From a virus (lineage: Duplodnaviria > Caudoviricetes), in the IMG/VR virus record IMGVR_UViG_3300038393_002038, positions 1-53,076 of that record: a stretch of DNA of 53,076 bases. One strand, 5' to 3'. Of the stretch, positions 27,307-53,025 are shown piece by piece. Both the position numbers and the translations under genes were made by a program. Positions within the stretch are counted from its first letter, which is position 1; each line of letters begins with the position of its first letter. The notes under the pieces were generated by a model. That model was not told where the DNA came from. It saw only the letters and a program-made list of their open reading frames with translations, and did not search any database.

Positions 27307-27351
27307 AAAAAGCCACACACCCTTAAAGTGCATGGCTTTCGTAGAAGCTCT
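27307..27351 (-). promoter_or_regulatory. Conserved leader attenuator copy 1
   Basis: AGAGCTTCTACGAAAGCC-stem-GGCTTTTT upstream of ATG 27295. Confidence 0.85.
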
Positions 27352-27367
27352 TTTTGATATTGTAAAA

Positions 27368-32954: not shown

Positions 32955-33001
32955 AAAAAAGCCCGATTCCATTGCTGAAATCAGGCTTTCGTTGAAGCTC
33001 T
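32955..33001 (-). promoter_or_regulatory. Conserved leader attenuator copy 2
   Basis: AGAGCTTCAACGAAAGCC-stem-GGCTTTTTT upstream of ATG 32941. Confidence 0.85.
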
Positions 33002-33021
33002 TTTGTTATGTAAAAGTAATA

Positions 33022-37936: not shown

Positions 37937-37983
37937 AAAAAAGCCACTACAACTTTCGCTGTAATGGCTTTCGATGAAGCTCT
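37937..37983 (-). promoter_or_regulatory. Conserved leader attenuator copy 3
   Basis: AGAGCTTCATCGAAAGCC-stem-GGCTTTTTT upstream of ATG 37923. Confidence 0.85.
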
Positions 37984-38007
37984 TATTTTTAAAAGTTAAC
38001 TTATAGG

Positions 38008-44794: not shown

Positions 44795-46225
44795 TTAATT
44801 ATTGTTGTTTCCGGAACTGCTTGAATTATCCGCAACAGTTATCTGCGCCGGTGAATTAAATTTTTTACCAAGGGCAACCCATTGATAGTAATACATGTCT
44901 CCATCAGGTATAGGATCCATCTGGTTAATCGCCAGCCATTGATTAGCTGTGATGATATTATTTTGCCACTCAATAAGTAATCCCTGATTTAAATAAAGCC
45001 TTGCACGGCCGCTGTTGATTTTGTCTTCCTGAAGAACAGGAATATGGCTAAAATCTTTTTTAATCGATACTCCATAATCAGCGGCGCCAAAGAATTCACT
45101 AATTTGTTCATACACCATATTCGAAAAGGGAATTACAAAATCCTGATACAGTTGTTTTTTGAAGGCTTCTGCCTCAGTACCTGATATTGATGTTGTATTT
45201 GCAGCAGCAAGAAGTCTGTAGGGATAATTCAGGGCGTCTGCTATTACCATTGTATCATCTTCGGCCCACTCAGTTAGCATAAGGTCCCTGTAAGGCATCC
45301 CCATTTGTTGCCATTTTAAAGCGCTGTTGGATACGATGAACTTCCATTGATTACTCTTTAATCCGTACCTGAGAAGATCGGTCTGTATCTCCTCTTTCTC
45401 ATCCTCATCCAACGGAATAACACCGGCCGGATCTTTTTCGGGTGTGAGAATTCCAAGTGCCCCACGGTAATGAATCAATGCTCCCTTACTGTTGTAAATC
45501 CCTATAACATTCGAGATATTTTGTTGGATAGACTTTATGGGACTGTTAGGTAGAAACAAGTGATTAAAGCCCGGCGTAATATCTTTGATAATGATTACGT
45601 CATCCTGACTCAGTGTAGTGATTTCGTTTCCATAACGGACCACTATCGATTCGATATAATTCCCTTTATCACTGAAGAAAGTTTTTTTGCTGGTGGTGAT
45701 TTCGCACATGTAGGGCGGAATGTTCCACATCGCAGTAGCGTCTTCATTTTTAAAGCCAACAGGCTTCACAGGAAGCCACACAGCGTAACCAAATAGGCGG
45801 AGATAAATCGCCGTTTGTGCGTCAAACTGTTTACCGTTTTGCATAGGATTCGGCCTGAGCAGTAATTTTTGAATCTTCTTGGTGTACGGATTGGTTACAT
45901 CTTTGTCTTTGGCATCAGCAAATCTTATTTTTCCATTCACATAAGCATAAGCCTGTTTATTAACTATAGAGTAAATAGGAGCGCAGCATTCATAAGCTTT
46001 GACAATATCTTTGAGACCGCCATAAGAAAAGAAAACATCAAAGGATCCCGCTCCGCCAAAATTCCATCCTTCATTTCCAAAAGCAATACCACCAGAGCGG
46101 TAATTTATAGGATTGATAACGTCTGACTGGATCGTGCCGCCAAGCCCCATGTCAAGCCCGAAAAAAGACTTTGCAGCGTTTCCGCTTATCCTTGCGATTT
46201 TATTAAATGCTTTCTCTTTTGTCAT
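44795..46225 (-). CDS. Portal protein
   Basis: LL.RPNPMQ...F, LFGYA; HK97-like portal size and position. Confidence 0.88.
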   Translation of the reverse strand: MTKEKAFNKIARISGNAAKSFFGLDMGLGGTIQSDVINPINYRSGGIAFGNEGWNFGGAGSFDVFFSYGGLKDIVKAYECCAPIYSIVNKQAYAYVNGKIRFADAKDKDVTNPYTKKIQKLLLRPNPMQNGKQFDAQTAIYLRLFGYAVWLPVKPVGFKNEDATAMWNIPPYMCEITTSKKTFFSDKGNYIESIVVRYGNEITTLSQDDVIIIKDITPGFNHLFLPNSPIKSIQQNISNVIGIYNSKGALIHYRGALGILTPEKDPAGVIPLDEDEKEEIQTDLLRYGLKSNQWKFIVSNSALKWQQMGMPYRDLMLTEWAEDDTMVIADALNYPYRLLAAANTTSISGTEAEAFKKQLYQDFVIPFSNMVYEQISEFFGAADYGVSIKKDFSHIPVLQEDKINSGRARLYLNQGLLIEWQNNIITANQWLAINQMDPIPDGDMYYYQWVALGKKFNSPAQITVADNSSSSGNNNN

Positions 46226-46235
46226 TTCATAAAAT

Positions 46236-46283
46236 AAAAAAGCCGTAATACGTTTTAAGTATTACGGCTTTCGATGAAGCTCT
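46236..46283 (-). promoter_or_regulatory. Conserved leader attenuator copy 4
   Basis: AGAGCTTCATCGAAAGCC-GTAATAC/GTATTAC-GGCTTTTTT upstream of portal ATG. Confidence 0.85.
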
Positions 46284-46368
46284 TCGGGTGCCCTATCCTG
46301 CTGTACACTTAGGAAATTATCATAAACGTCGCTTCATGTGAAATTGCGCAATCGCTATTCCGCAACGT

Positions 46369-46710
46369 TTAAAAAACTTTCAAGCACCCTTTTTCTATGT
46401 GTGTTGTAGCGAGAGCCGGATTCGAACCGGCGGCCTTCGGGTTATGAGCCCAACGAGCTAACCGCTGCTCTACCTCGCGATGTTTGAATTTACATGGCAC
46501 CATTTCTCTTTTACATTCTGCATGAACTCTGCAAATTTTAGGCGTGATGTCAATTGCTATCAATCCTTGTTTGAACTCAAATACATTTCTATGCCTGCAT
46601 TGAGAATTCGTGCAGTTCATAGAAATAGAAAAAGTTCCATCACCTATATCAACAAAGAGCAAAGTTTTATTGCAGTTCCTGCACTTCAGTTTTGTGTAAT
46701 TTTCCGGCAT
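46369..46710 (-). CDS. Mu Com-like zinc-finger regulator
   Basis: LKCRNCNKTLL...I...C....C..N, resembles the Com zinc ribbon. Confidence 0.7.
   Translation of the reverse strand: MPENYTKLKCRNCNKTLLFVDIGDGTFSISMNCTNSQCRHRNVFEFKQGLIAIDITPKICRVHAECKREMVPCKFKHREVEQRLARWAHNPKAAGSNPALATTHIEKGCLKVF
46407..46479 (-). tRNA. Initiator tRNA-fMet (CAT), CCA not encoded
   Basis: Cloverleaf; C1xU72 mismatch; GGG/CCC anticodon stem; GGTTCGAATCC. Confidence 0.93.
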
Positions 46711-46718
46711 AAAAATAA

Positions 46719-46735
46719 GTAATAAATTTTATTAC
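46719..46735. promoter_or_regulatory. 17-bp palindromic operator
   Basis: GTAATAAATTTTATTAC just upstream of the Com-like gene. Confidence 0.7.
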
Positions 46736-46858
46736 CAAGTAATTATTTTTATTGGTCAGTTATTTTATAGAAAACCCCTCGTAAAAACGAAGGGTGATTT
46801 TAAACTTTTATTCCTAAATTATTACCAATGAAATAACTATTGCTTTTCGATAGTAAAA

Positions 46859-51574: not shown

Positions 51575-52774
51575 TCAAAAAACATTCTTCAATTTATTAG
51601 CCTCACTTACTAATTTACTTTGCTTTAAATGCATGTACGTCTTTATCACTTTATTACTTTTTACTCCAAGTATTGACATAGCCGCCTTTTCCTCAACTCC
51701 TCCGTCCACCAAAAAAGACCCCATCGTATGCCGACCAACATGTGAAGTAAGATTGATGTTTACGCCTGCTTTGGCTGCGAGTATTTTTAGATGAATATTA
51801 AAAGTTGTCCTGAAATTTTTCGGACTGGTTATTTCAAAATTATCCCGCAAGGACCATTCGAAGTATCTTCTTTGTCTTTCAGTTGTGATCGGTATTTGAG
51901 CGGTGTTATCATGCCTGATAGTCTTGTGTGGTTTAAACTCAAGATAGCCGGCATCATTAAACATGTACTGATCCAGTATCATCGCGTCTGATATTCTCAT
52001 TCCTGAAACACACATGCATAAAAATCTTCGTCCTACTTTTTTTGTTAGTTCCGGAAGATCTTCTGAAAGCGTGCGTTCAATTTTTTCAATGTCTGAAAGT
52101 TCGAGAAATCTTATCTTACTTTCGTCGGTTTCATAGCTGCCGACCTTAAATTGTTTAAACGGATTTCCTTCAGGTAAGATTATTTCGTTTGCAACGGCCT
52201 CGTTATAAACCATGCGAATAAATCCAAGCGCCTTCCATATGCTGTTTTTGTTTAATTCGGACTTATCTTTTTTCTTGTAGTCGTTTTGCATCCAAAATTT
52301 GTAAGAAGAGAGAAAAGAAACAGTGATGTGATTGAAATTAAGCTCTGGCTTAAAATGCATCAGCCTTTTTATTTCGTCTCTGTATCTTCGTTTGGTATCG
52401 GGCGAGTATCCTTTACCGTCTTTGAGTTTTTTATTCTCAATCACTGATTCTGCGTACTCATAAAAATTCTCATAAGCCGAATTTGATTTCAGGTACTGCT
52501 TAATGATTTCTTTGGTTAGTGGTAGTCCGAATGCCTGGCGTTTTACTATGAAGTTACTATGCCTGTTTAGTATGTTCTCAATTATGTTATTGATCAGCGA
52601 ATAATTAGGGCATTTCGGTTTTACTCTTTTTAAATCTTTGTCCCAGAATTCTGGCTTTACTTTTTGCTTTGTGTTGTCACTTCCGATATGCTTTCTTTTA
52701 AGATCAAACCGGATGATAATTGTTGATAGCCCCTGTTTGTTGGGTATCATTAAATCGGGATAGATGTTTACCAT
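51575..52774 (-). CDS. int: Tyrosine integrase
   Basis: GMRISD, K, SHVGRHT, catalytic Y; arm-binding N-terminus. Confidence 0.93.
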   Translation of the reverse strand: MVNIYPDLMIPNKQGLSTIIIRFDLKRKHIGSDNTKQKVKPEFWDKDLKRVKPKCPNYSLINNIIENILNRHSNFIVKRQAFGLPLTKEIIKQYLKSNSAYENFYEYAESVIENKKLKDGKGYSPDTKRRYRDEIKRLMHFKPELNFNHITVSFLSSYKFWMQNDYKKKDKSELNKNSIWKALGFIRMVYNEAVANEIILPEGNPFKQFKVGSYETDESKIRFLELSDIEKIERTLSEDLPELTKKVGRRFLCMCVSGMRISDAMILDQYMFNDAGYLEFKPHKTIRHDNTAQIPITTERQRRYFEWSLRDNFEITSPKNFRTTFNIHLKILAAKAGVNINLTSHVGRHTMGSFLVDGGVEEKAAMSILGVKSNKVIKTYMHLKQSKLVSEANKLKNVF

Positions 52775-52793
52775 GTTTATAAGTTTTTAAAAT

Positions 52794-52825
52794 TTATGGA
52801 GCAGCTGTGGAGCATTTATGGAGCA
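52794..52825. repeat. Three 11-bp-period direct repeats, probable integrase arm sites
   Basis: TTATGGAGCA / CTGTGGAGCA / TTATGGAGCA. Confidence 0.75.
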
Positions 52826-52951
52826 AACCATGTTTTTTAATGCTATTTACTACCGTTTATTGCCGTCAAAATATGGGGGAGCACCTTCCCTTAAAAGCAG
52901 AAAAGACGCTGAAAGTAGCGTCTTTATTAAGTTTCGTGAATCTTGTGAGTG

Positions 52952-53025
52952 CGGACCGGACGGGACTCGAACCCGCGACCTCCGCCGTGACAGGGCGGCA
53001 TTCTAACCAACTGAACTACCGATCC
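52952..53025 (-). tRNA. tRNA-Asp (GTC), likely integration site
   Basis: GGATCGGTAGTTCAGTTGGTTAGAATGCCGCCCTGTCACGGCGG...GGTTCGAGTCCCGTCCGGTCCG. Confidence 0.97.

What the first reader, a model, noticed from the sequence alone, without database searches (positions are those of the whole stretch)
46407..46479. Intact initiator tRNA-fMet nested on the same strand inside the Com-like ORF
Seen: the 113-aa ORF has no stop before the tRNA and reads through it (HREVEQRLARWAHNPKAAGSNPALAT). The tRNA keeps initiator hallmarks (C1xU72, three G-C pairs in the anticodon stem). Inference: RNase P cleavage would leave a stop-less regulator mRNA, a tmRNA substrate. 3' processing would create a new 5' end for the portal leader. 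tRNA maturation and regulator translation may therefore compete. The tRNA could also offset host fMet-tRNA-cleaving defences. A recent loss of a stop codon is the mundane alternative.
Basis: partly seen in the sequence, partly recalled or inferred. Interest (0 to 1): 0.75.

Follow-up and report, generated by a model that had tools for sequence, protein, structure and literature searches.

The report
Initiator tRNA nested in phage gene
A prophage from soil carries a complete start-type methionine tRNA gene at the tail end of a small conserved zinc-binding gene that has no stop codon of its own, a rare layout that several relatives share but whose use as a switch is unproven.

Summary
A tRNA-Met(CAU) with initiator marks lies at 46407-46479 on the minus strand. 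The 113-aa ORF 46369-46710 on the same strand runs through it; tRNA bases 1-3 are codon 78. Contigs from other soil and rhizosphere runs show the same letters, so an assembly error is unlikely.

The ORF is a real gene. Six distinct proteins share its start, four invariant zinc-ribbon Cys, a second Cys/His cluster and in-frame indels. After the core, 4 of 6 continue into tRNA-derived residues without a stop. The other 2 end at or just before the junction. A recent stop loss is therefore unlikely, but the tail length varies and looks unselected. I could not fetch the relatives' DNA.

Among 25 other viral loci with similar tRNAs, none has an ORF running through.

"Com-like" is not supported by Pfam PF10122.

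The proposed mechanism (RNase P cleavage leaving a non-stop mRNA) matches the published model for selC nested in selB (PMC8124441). It remains untested here.

This scan noted nested tRNAs in phage ORFs before, on other DNA.

The parts
46407..46479 (-). tRNA-Met(CAU) of initiator type, 73 nt, no encoded CCA
   Evidence: ARAGORN; Rfam 60.6 bits; cloverleaf is the MFE fold; C1.U72, 3 G:C in the anticodon stem and A11:U24 read
46369..46710 (-). 113-aa ORF that runs through the tRNA (codons 78-101 plus one base are the tRNA; codons 102-113 are the trailer; TAA stop at 46371-46369)
46480..46710 (-). Conserved 77-aa core: zinc ribbon (C10, C13, C33, C38) plus a C-terminal Cys/His cluster (C60, H63, C66, C73). 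It ends 4 residues before the tRNA.
   Evidence: Six-member alignment with 26 invariant columns and in-frame indels; homologues; AlphaFold2 model, mean pLDDT 74.7, mostly beta
46774..46795 (-). Terminator-like hairpin with a T run upstream of the ORF; 5' border of the ORF-tRNA cassette
   Evidence: consensus scan only
46535..46563 (-). Sigma-70-like promoter match (TTGATA-17-TAAAAT) inside the ORF, about 55 nt upstream of the tRNA; possible separate tRNA promoter
   Evidence: Weak: 7 promoter-like sites were found against 7.4 expected in shuffles
46238..46284 (-). Conserved leader motif AAGAGCTTCATCGAAAGCC fused to a 14-bp hairpin and a T run, 13 nt before the portal ATG; 3' border of the cassette
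   Evidence: one of four exact copies on the minus strand
44795..46225 (-). Portal protein gene downstream
   Evidence: Pfam PF04860, E 3.7e-19

Best explanation
A provirus, probably of a Bacteroidota host, carries a compact cassette between two terminator-like hairpins, just upstream of the portal gene. The cassette holds a small, conserved, two-cluster zinc-binding gene followed directly by a functional-looking initiator tRNA-Met gene. The protein gene has no stop codon of its own. Its conserved core ends 4 codons before tRNA base 1, and translation stops wherever the tRNA or its trailer first offers a stop. In this phage the D-loop (GGUUA rather than the commoner GGUA, which gives an in-frame UAG) leaves the frame open, so the ORF runs through the whole tRNA and gains a 36-residue tail. 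The stop-less junction is inherited within the family, not a recent accident, but the tail itself is not selected. Inferred consequence: any transcript that starts at the gene's promoter carries both products. Ribosomes can translate it while the tRNA is unfolded or uncut. Once RNase P cuts at the tRNA's 5' end (U at -1), the upstream piece is an mRNA without a stop, whose products would be handled by ribosome rescue. Protein output per transcript is therefore limited by tRNA processing. I regard this as a tolerated or mildly useful by-product of tight packing rather than a proven switch.
For: Shown:
- tRNA and ORF anatomy.
- The ORF is a gene: six distinct proteins share the start MPE/MAE, 26 invariant columns including C10, C13, C33, C38, C60, H63 and C73, and indels in whole codons.
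- Four of six (window/P0001, P0002, P0006, P0083) carry tRNA-derived residues (REV..., EVEQ...AHNPK) right after the core, without a stop.
- Tail length differs: 4 residues in P0083 and 36 in the window. P0004 and P0084 end at or before the junction.
- D-loop effect: frame 0 is closed in 17 of 20 other distinct similar tRNAs.
- A more distant phage (L005, portal 58% identical) has a related 61-aa zinc-ribbon gene ending in TAA 6 nt before a tRNA-Met, then a hairpin, then the portal gene. The gene-tRNA pairing is therefore older than the overlap.
- Flanking hairpins.
- Sequence identical in other runs.
Inferred from general knowledge: RNase P cleavage, the fate of the non-stop mRNA, and co-transcription.
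Against: - No RNA data: no RNA run holds the stretch, so co-transcription, processing and translation are all unobserved.
- The relatives' DNA could not be read (searches found none). The presence of a tRNA in them is inferred from peptide tails only.
- The ends of P0002 and P0006 (contigs of 1.0 and 1.1 kb) may be contig ends, as P0001's certainly is. The ends of P0004, P0083 and P0084 could not be confirmed as stops.
- If all six really lack a stop before the tRNA, a selected design becomes more likely than I rate it.
- A stop could arise by one change in the linker (for example AAA to TAA), yet it is absent in at least four diverged members. That is weak evidence for constraint.
Confidence: 0.6

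Rival explanations
1. Selected switch. The stop-less junction is kept so that tRNA maturation and regulator synthesis exclude each other. RNase P cleavage yields a non-stop mRNA, and the regulator made from it is tmRNA-tagged and degraded. This keeps the zinc-ribbon protein low or transient, and the 3' cut sets the 5' end of the portal leader.
For: - The junction without a stop is shared by at least 4 of 6 diverged homologues.
- 0 of 25 other viral loci with similar tRNAs have such a layout, so it is not a common accident.
- The cassette sits directly before the first of four conserved late-gene leader elements, where a dose-limited regulator would make sense.
- The same model is in print for selC in selB (PMC8124441).
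Against: - P0004 and P0084 end at or before the junction, and L005's gene has TAA TAA before its tRNA. The family therefore works with a stop too.
- Tail length varies from 4 to 36 residues.
- There is no expression data.
- Inheritance alone can keep the junction, because only about 4 linker codons are free to mutate to a stop.
Confidence: 0.2
2. Recent loss of a stop codon, or an assembly or sequencing error, in this one phage.
For: It is the simplest reading of a single genome. The window's tail is the longest in the family.
Against: - Contigs of runs X6 and X7 cover the tRNA, the junction and the ORF with 0 differences and no indel.
- Four runs of four studies hold all sampled words.
- Homologues 49-64% identical over the core also read into the tRNA.
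Confidence: 0.05
3. The ORF is not a gene: a spurious reading frame called across a tRNA gene. Such frames are common in protein databases.
For: 75 of the 81 hits of the whole-library search match only residues 55-110, which is the translated tRNA. The 17 whose sequences I read all carry ...AHN... and have no zinc ribbon. Gene callers therefore often call ORFs over tRNA-Met genes.
Against: The 77 residues upstream are conserved as protein in six members, with invariant Cys/His and whole-codon indels. The start codon position is shared. The AlphaFold2 model reaches mean pLDDT 74.7.
Confidence: 0.03
4. The overlap is irrelevant and the tRNA is the point. The phage supplies its own initiator tRNA to keep initiation going when the host pool is depleted or cleaved (for example by VapC-type nucleases), or to boost late-gene initiation.
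For: - The tRNA has all the initiator marks.
- Phage tRNAs as a counter to host tRNA nucleases have been proposed (PMC10264068, passages read).
- At least 25 other IMG/VR contigs carry similar initiator-like tRNAs.
Against: - The anticodon loop is the ordinary CUCAUAA with no change near the known cleavage site.
- The same paper reports that phages generally avoid encoding tRNA-fMet where VapC targets it.
- Nothing in the window points to such a host nuclease.
- This reading concerns the tRNA's role and does not explain the stop-less junction.
Confidence: 0.12

Closest known systems
selC (tRNA-Sec) nested inside the selB ORF of Alphaproteobacteria (Mukai 2021, Int J Mol Sci 22:4605, PMC8124441; abstract and sections 2.6 and 3 read)
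   Same: A whole tRNA gene lies on the same strand in the 3' part of a protein ORF and encodes a C-terminal extension. Relatives carry shorter extensions or partial overlaps. The proposed consequence is the same: RNase P processing gives a non-stop mRNA, so protein and tRNA are alternatives. That case is also bioinformatic only.
   Different: Here the setting is a phage, the tRNA is an initiator tRNA-Met, and the protein is a 77-aa zinc-binding protein of unknown function with no known link to the tRNA (SelB binds tRNA-Sec). The downstream ORF's start is not overlapped. The family is tiny, with six proteins found.
tRNA genes overlapping or nested in protein genes of animal mitochondria (tRNA-Lys inside cox1 of Armadillidium vulgare, as cited in PMC8124441 section 3) and the mitochondrial tRNA-punctuation model (recalled)
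   Same: tRNA excision defines mRNA ends, and coding sequence and tRNA share the same bases.
   Different: Mitochondria complete stop codons by polyadenylation. Here the last codon before the cut is CAU, and added A's would give no stop (read). This is a bacterial host with tmRNA rescue.
Phage Mu Com (Pfam PF10122 Zn_ribbon_Com), translational activator of mom
   Same: A small phage protein with a four-Cys zinc ribbon near its N-terminus, placed before late genes that have structured leaders. The resemblance of the first motif (KCxNCNK) to Com is recalled, not from a call.
   Different: No PF10122 match at E up to 10. It has a second Cys/His cluster that I do not recall in Com. There is no PDB sequence or fold match. 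RNA binding is untested.
Phage-encoded tRNAs, including tRNA-Met (van den Berg et al. 2023, eLife 12:e85183, PMC10264068; passages read)
   Same: A phage-borne tRNA that may top up or replace a host tRNA.
   Different: Those tRNAs are free-standing genes or arrays. Escape mutations in the anticodon loop are their hallmark, and none is seen here.

Membership tests
Bacterial initiator tRNA (tRNA-fMet) | CAU anticodon in a complete cloverleaf | tested here: met
   ARAGORN; Rfam 60.6 bits; MFE cloverleaf
Bacterial initiator tRNA (tRNA-fMet) | [quoted passage not shown] | tested here: met
   C1.U72 (flagged as a non-standard pair), G2:C71 and C3:G70 read. E. coli has C1.A72; whether C.U serves equally well is not tested here.
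Bacterial initiator tRNA (tRNA-fMet) | Three consecutive G:C pairs at 29:41, 30:40 and 31:39 (PMC5389676) | tested here: met
   GGG/CCC in the anticodon stem
Bacterial initiator tRNA (tRNA-fMet) | Purine 11 : pyrimidine 24 (A11:U24); this feature is recalled, not from a call | tested here: met
   D stem GAGC/GCUC
Bacterial initiator tRNA (tRNA-fMet) | Is charged, formylated and used in the P site | not testable with these tools
   Needs biochemistry or tRNA sequencing
Mu Com family (PF10122 Zn_ribbon_Com) | Match to the family profile | tested here: not met
   No PF10122 hit for the ORF or its N-terminal 50 or 77 aa at E up to 10. No hit in a six-frame search of the window.
Mu Com family (PF10122 Zn_ribbon_Com) | Four-Cys zinc ribbon | tested here: met
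   C10, C13, C33 and C38 are invariant in 6 of 6
Mu Com family (PF10122 Zn_ribbon_Com) | Binds a leader RNA and activates translation of a downstream gene | not testable with these tools
[quoted passage not shown] | Entire tRNA on the same strand inside the ORF | tested here: met
[quoted passage not shown] | The host ORF is a real, conserved gene | tested here: met
[quoted passage not shown] | Overlap kept in relatives | tested here: inconclusive
   4 of 6 proteins run into tRNA-derived residues and 2 of 6 end at or before the junction. The relatives' DNA was not obtainable.
[quoted passage not shown] | Protein and tRNA expression are alternatives | not testable with these tools
   No RNA run holds the stretch

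The most novel reading that the evidence does not exclude
The zinc-binding protein and the initiator tRNA are a working pair, kept together across phages whose portals are only 58% identical (the window family and L005). In the window family they are fused into one transcript without a stop, so that RNase P processing of the tRNA acts as a built-in timer. Each transcript makes regulator only until it is cut. Product made after the cut is tagged for degradation, and the cut also releases the leader of the portal operon. That would be the first phage example of a tRNA used at once as a tRNA, as coding sequence and as an mRNA-processing switch for a late-gene regulator.
Probability: 0.15. Interest if true: 0.75.

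Novelty: new variant of a known kind. Interest (0 to 1): 0.45.

Why it matters
Whole tRNA genes nested in bacterial protein genes have been predicted in print only for selC in selB. This case adds an unrelated one, with a phage, an initiator tRNA and a small zinc-binding gene, in which the stop-less junction is shared by diverged relatives. If tRNA processing really limits synthesis of the upstream protein, it would be a simple and general way to couple a tRNA's maturation to the dose of a regulator. It would also be a natural source of non-stop mRNAs. If not, the case is a caution for annotation. Gene callers both invent ORFs over tRNAs (75 of 81 database hits here) and may wrongly discard real genes that overlap one.

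Tried and rejected
**Relatives' DNA**
- The search for related loci found no relative with the 77-aa core or with alignments A1 and A3: viral contigs, genome contigs and metagenome contigs.
- A degenerate DNA pattern for a conserved peptide found nothing in viral contigs.
- One search was my own error (D-loop gap one base too long) and found nothing. It was corrected.
- L005's zinc-ribbon gene has no other relative in viral contigs.
- blastn against the phage collection matched only the tRNA part, in 279 records.

**Function of the protein**
- Pfam, PHROGs and NCBIfam gave nothing above noise.
- A profile search against PDB sequences gave 0 hits at E up to 10.
- Foldseek against the PDB gave no match at E up to 0.001.
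- VIA-align gave a best Z of 3.7 (NusG domain, 53 residues, rmsd 3.3), which is within noise.

**Expression**
- No RNA holder is listed for the stretch.

**Host**
- tblastn of the portal found only distant hits (25-30% identity), mostly Polaribacter phages. The Bacteroidota host is a guess.

**Other checks and rejected ideas**
- Other tRNA-Met loci with a zinc-ribbon neighbour: 0 of 25.
- Scan notes searched by sequence: nothing.
- Rejected: completion of a stop by polyadenylation after RNase P cleavage. The mRNA would end ...AAA CAU, and added A's give Lys codons.
- Rejected: my own first thought that this frame is open in tRNA-Met genes generally. One search shows it closed in 17 of 20 similar tRNAs.

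Full report
**What is there**

The window is an IMG/VR virus record of 53,076 bases, estimated 98% complete. It has an integrase (51575-52774, minus strand; PHROG 1) next to a tRNA-Asp at its end. It also has terminase subunits and a portal gene (44795-46225, minus strand; PF04860). It is therefore a provirus.

ARAGORN finds a tRNA-Met(CAT) at 46406-46479 on the minus strand. Rfam's tRNA model matches 46407-46479 at 60.6 bits, full length. The cloverleaf is the minimum-free-energy fold alone and inside 335 nt of context.

Read from the alignment and the sequence, the tRNA has these features:
- C1.U72, which flags as a non-standard pair.
- G2:C71 and C3:G70.
- A11:U24.
- GGG/CCC at 29-31:39-41.
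- A73, and no encoded CCA.

The 1:72 mismatch with the 2:71 and 3:70 pairs, and the three G:C pairs, are the marks of bacterial initiators (PMC5389676, introduction). A11:U24 as an initiator mark is recalled.

On the same strand, the ORF 46369-46710 (113 aa) has no stop before the tRNA. Codon 77 (CAT) ends at 46480 and codon 78 (CGC) is tRNA bases 1-3. The frame stays open through the tRNA and 12 trailer codons to TAA.

**Is it an error or chance?**

Logan contigs from other soil and rhizosphere runs cover 46200-46480 (X6), 46468-46618 (X6), 46436-46720 (X7) and 46569-46800 (X5). They show no differing letter and no indel. Four runs from four studies hold all sampled words.

As a control, I fetched 25 IMG/VR loci with a similar initiator-like tRNA:
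- None has an ORF running through the tRNA.
- Four have an ORF with at least 30 upstream codons that enters it. These are L007 and L018, which are identical, and L011 and L017. The latter two are translations of a neighbouring tRNA.
- None has a small zinc-ribbon-like ORF within 300 nt.

The ORF's frame is stop-free across the tRNA in only 3 of 20 other distinct tRNAs. The common D-loop ...GGTAGCTC puts TAG in that frame, and the window's GGTTAGCTC does not.

**Is the ORF a gene?**

A full HMMER search of 1.84 billion representatives gave 81 hits at E up to 0.001. Of these, 75 match only residues 55-110, which is the translated tRNA. The 17 whose sequences I read all carry ...AHN... (the CAU anticodon region) and have no zinc ribbon. 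They are frames called over tRNA genes, some over whole tRNA arrays (P0003, P0007).

True relatives of the first 77 residues do exist:
- P0001: the window's own sequence, cut at a contig end.
- P0002, P0004 and P0006.
- P0083 and P0084.

The six-member alignment (49-64% identity to the window) has 26 invariant columns. These include the start M-x-E, the ribbon C10, C13, C33 and C38, and a second cluster of C60, H63 and C73. Its indels are in whole codons. That is protein-level conservation right up to 4 residues before the tRNA. An AlphaFold2 model on this alignment is mostly beta with mean pLDDT 74.7.

No family could be assigned:
- Pfam, PHROGs and NCBIfam gave nothing above noise.
- PF10122 (Com) gave no match, including in a six-frame search.
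- No PDB sequence or fold match stands out.

'Com-like' is thus a resemblance, not a membership.

**What the relatives say about the junction**

After the conserved ...PCK(F/Y)... the proteins continue as follows:

| Protein | Contig | Continuation after the core |
|---|---|---|
| window | 53,076 bases (whole record) | K-H-REVEQRLARWAHNPK... to 113 aa |
| P0002 | 1.0 kb | KNKH-REVEHH, then ends |
| P0083 | 19.1 kb | KN-REVV, then ends |
| P0006 | 1.1 kb | S-EVEQLAARRAHNPKV..., then ends |
| P0084 | 22.1 kb | RR, then ends |
| P0004 | 8.7 kb, JGI | G, then ends |

So 4 of 6 run from the core into residues that are the translation of a tRNA-Met 5' part in the same frame, without a stop. The other 2 of 6 end at or just before the junction.

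Caveats:
- I could not read any of these contigs.
- P0001 shows that Logan contigs break at this tRNA, so the ends of P0002 and P0006 may be contig ends.
- P0083's end after 4 tRNA codons would fit a UAG or UAA at tRNA positions 13-15. That is an inference.
- The stops of P0004 and P0084 are unconfirmed.

A more distant phage also bears on this. L005 has a portal 58% identical to the window's. It has a 61-aa zinc-ribbon gene that is weakly but specifically similar (BLASTP E 3e-4 over the second Cys pair). That gene ends TAA-TAA 6 nt before a tRNA-Met, which is followed by a hairpin and the portal gene. The gene-tRNA pairing is therefore older than the overlap, and the module also works with a stop.

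**Reading**

The stop-less junction is inherited in this small family, which removes the 'recent stop loss' alternative. The tail varies from 4 to 36 residues, and two members plus L005 seem to stop before the tRNA. This argues that neither the tail peptide nor an obligatory non-stop design is under strong selection.

The cassette lies between a terminator-like hairpin (46795-46774) and a leader motif fused to a hairpin (46284-46238), which sits 13 nt before the portal ATG. This suggests a unit of its own.

The following steps are inferred, not shown:
1. A transcript from the gene's promoter carries both products.
2. RNase P cuts after U(-1) at 46480.
3. The upstream fragment is then a non-stop mRNA, subject to ribosome rescue.
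4. Protein is therefore made only before the cut.

This is exactly the model proposed for selC nested in selB (PMC8124441, sections 2.6 and 3). That paper calls its case the first nested tRNA in a bacterial ORF. A sigma-70-like site inside the ORF (46563-46535) could give the tRNA a separate transcript. Such sites are no more frequent here than in shuffles.

I rate the readings as follows:
- Inherited, tolerated overlap: 0.6.
- Selected switch: 0.2.
- Stop loss or assembly error: 0.05.
- Spurious ORF: 0.03.
- The anti-defence role of the tRNA: 0.12. It has no sequence support (ordinary anticodon loop; PMC10264068 passages) and does not explain the overlap.

**Novelty and score**

The kind, a tRNA nested in an ORF, is in print as a prediction. 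This scan has also noted nested tRNAs in other phage ORFs (I did not re-test those).

New here are the phage setting, the initiator tRNA, the unrelated zinc-binding host gene, and the evidence that the stop-less junction is shared by diverged relatives.

The case is limited by a very small family, no DNA for the relatives and no RNA data. I score interest at 0.45 and class it as a new variant of a known kind.

Noticed in passing
window 46266-46284, 37966-37984, 32984-33002, 27334-27352 (all minus strand): Four exact copies of AAGAGCTTCNNCGAAAGCC (0.01 expected by chance). Each is fused to a hairpin whose inner stem differs between copies but still pairs, then GGCTTTTT(T), then the ATG of portal, tape measure, hub-like and spike-like genes. 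L005 has a similar ...CAGCTTCATGAAAGCC-hairpin-T run before its portal gene. This looks like a shared late-gene leader or terminator element.
   Followed up: partly
L005 3863-3936 (+): The tRNA-Met of the related phage has C1.A72 and R11:Y24 but lacks the three G:C pairs (A29:U41 and a U31.U39 mismatch in the anticodon stem). It is not a canonical initiator, although it sits in the same slot.
   Followed up: no
proteins P0003 (1148 aa, 18 matched stretches) and P0007 (400 aa, 7 stretches): Public protein collections hold long 'proteins' that are translations of tandem tRNA arrays. 75 of 81 hits to this ORF were such tRNA-derived frames.
   Followed up: partly
window 46286-46389 (minus strand): The roughly 120 nt between the tRNA and the leader motif fold into a nested stem structure in the MFE of a 335-nt context (z -2.3). 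L005 has only about 12 nt there. No covariation test was possible.
   Followed up: partly
window 51575-53025 (minus strand): A tyrosine-type integrase lies directly beside a tRNA-Asp at the window's end. This is the likely attachment site of the provirus.
   Followed up: no
run X8, contig record 25 (tables 5 and 5c): A 129-nt contig of another organism carries two tRNA-like matches to 46406-46479 separated by 33 other letters. This is probably a tandem pair of initiator tRNA genes in some soil bacterium and is unrelated to the phage.
   Followed up: no
L007 1478-1735 and L018 1767-2024 (+): An identical 85-aa ORF runs 12 codons into a U1-type initiator-like tRNA. It has no zinc ribbon, and its upstream part looks like the translation of another structured RNA or tRNA. 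It is probably spurious.
   Followed up: no
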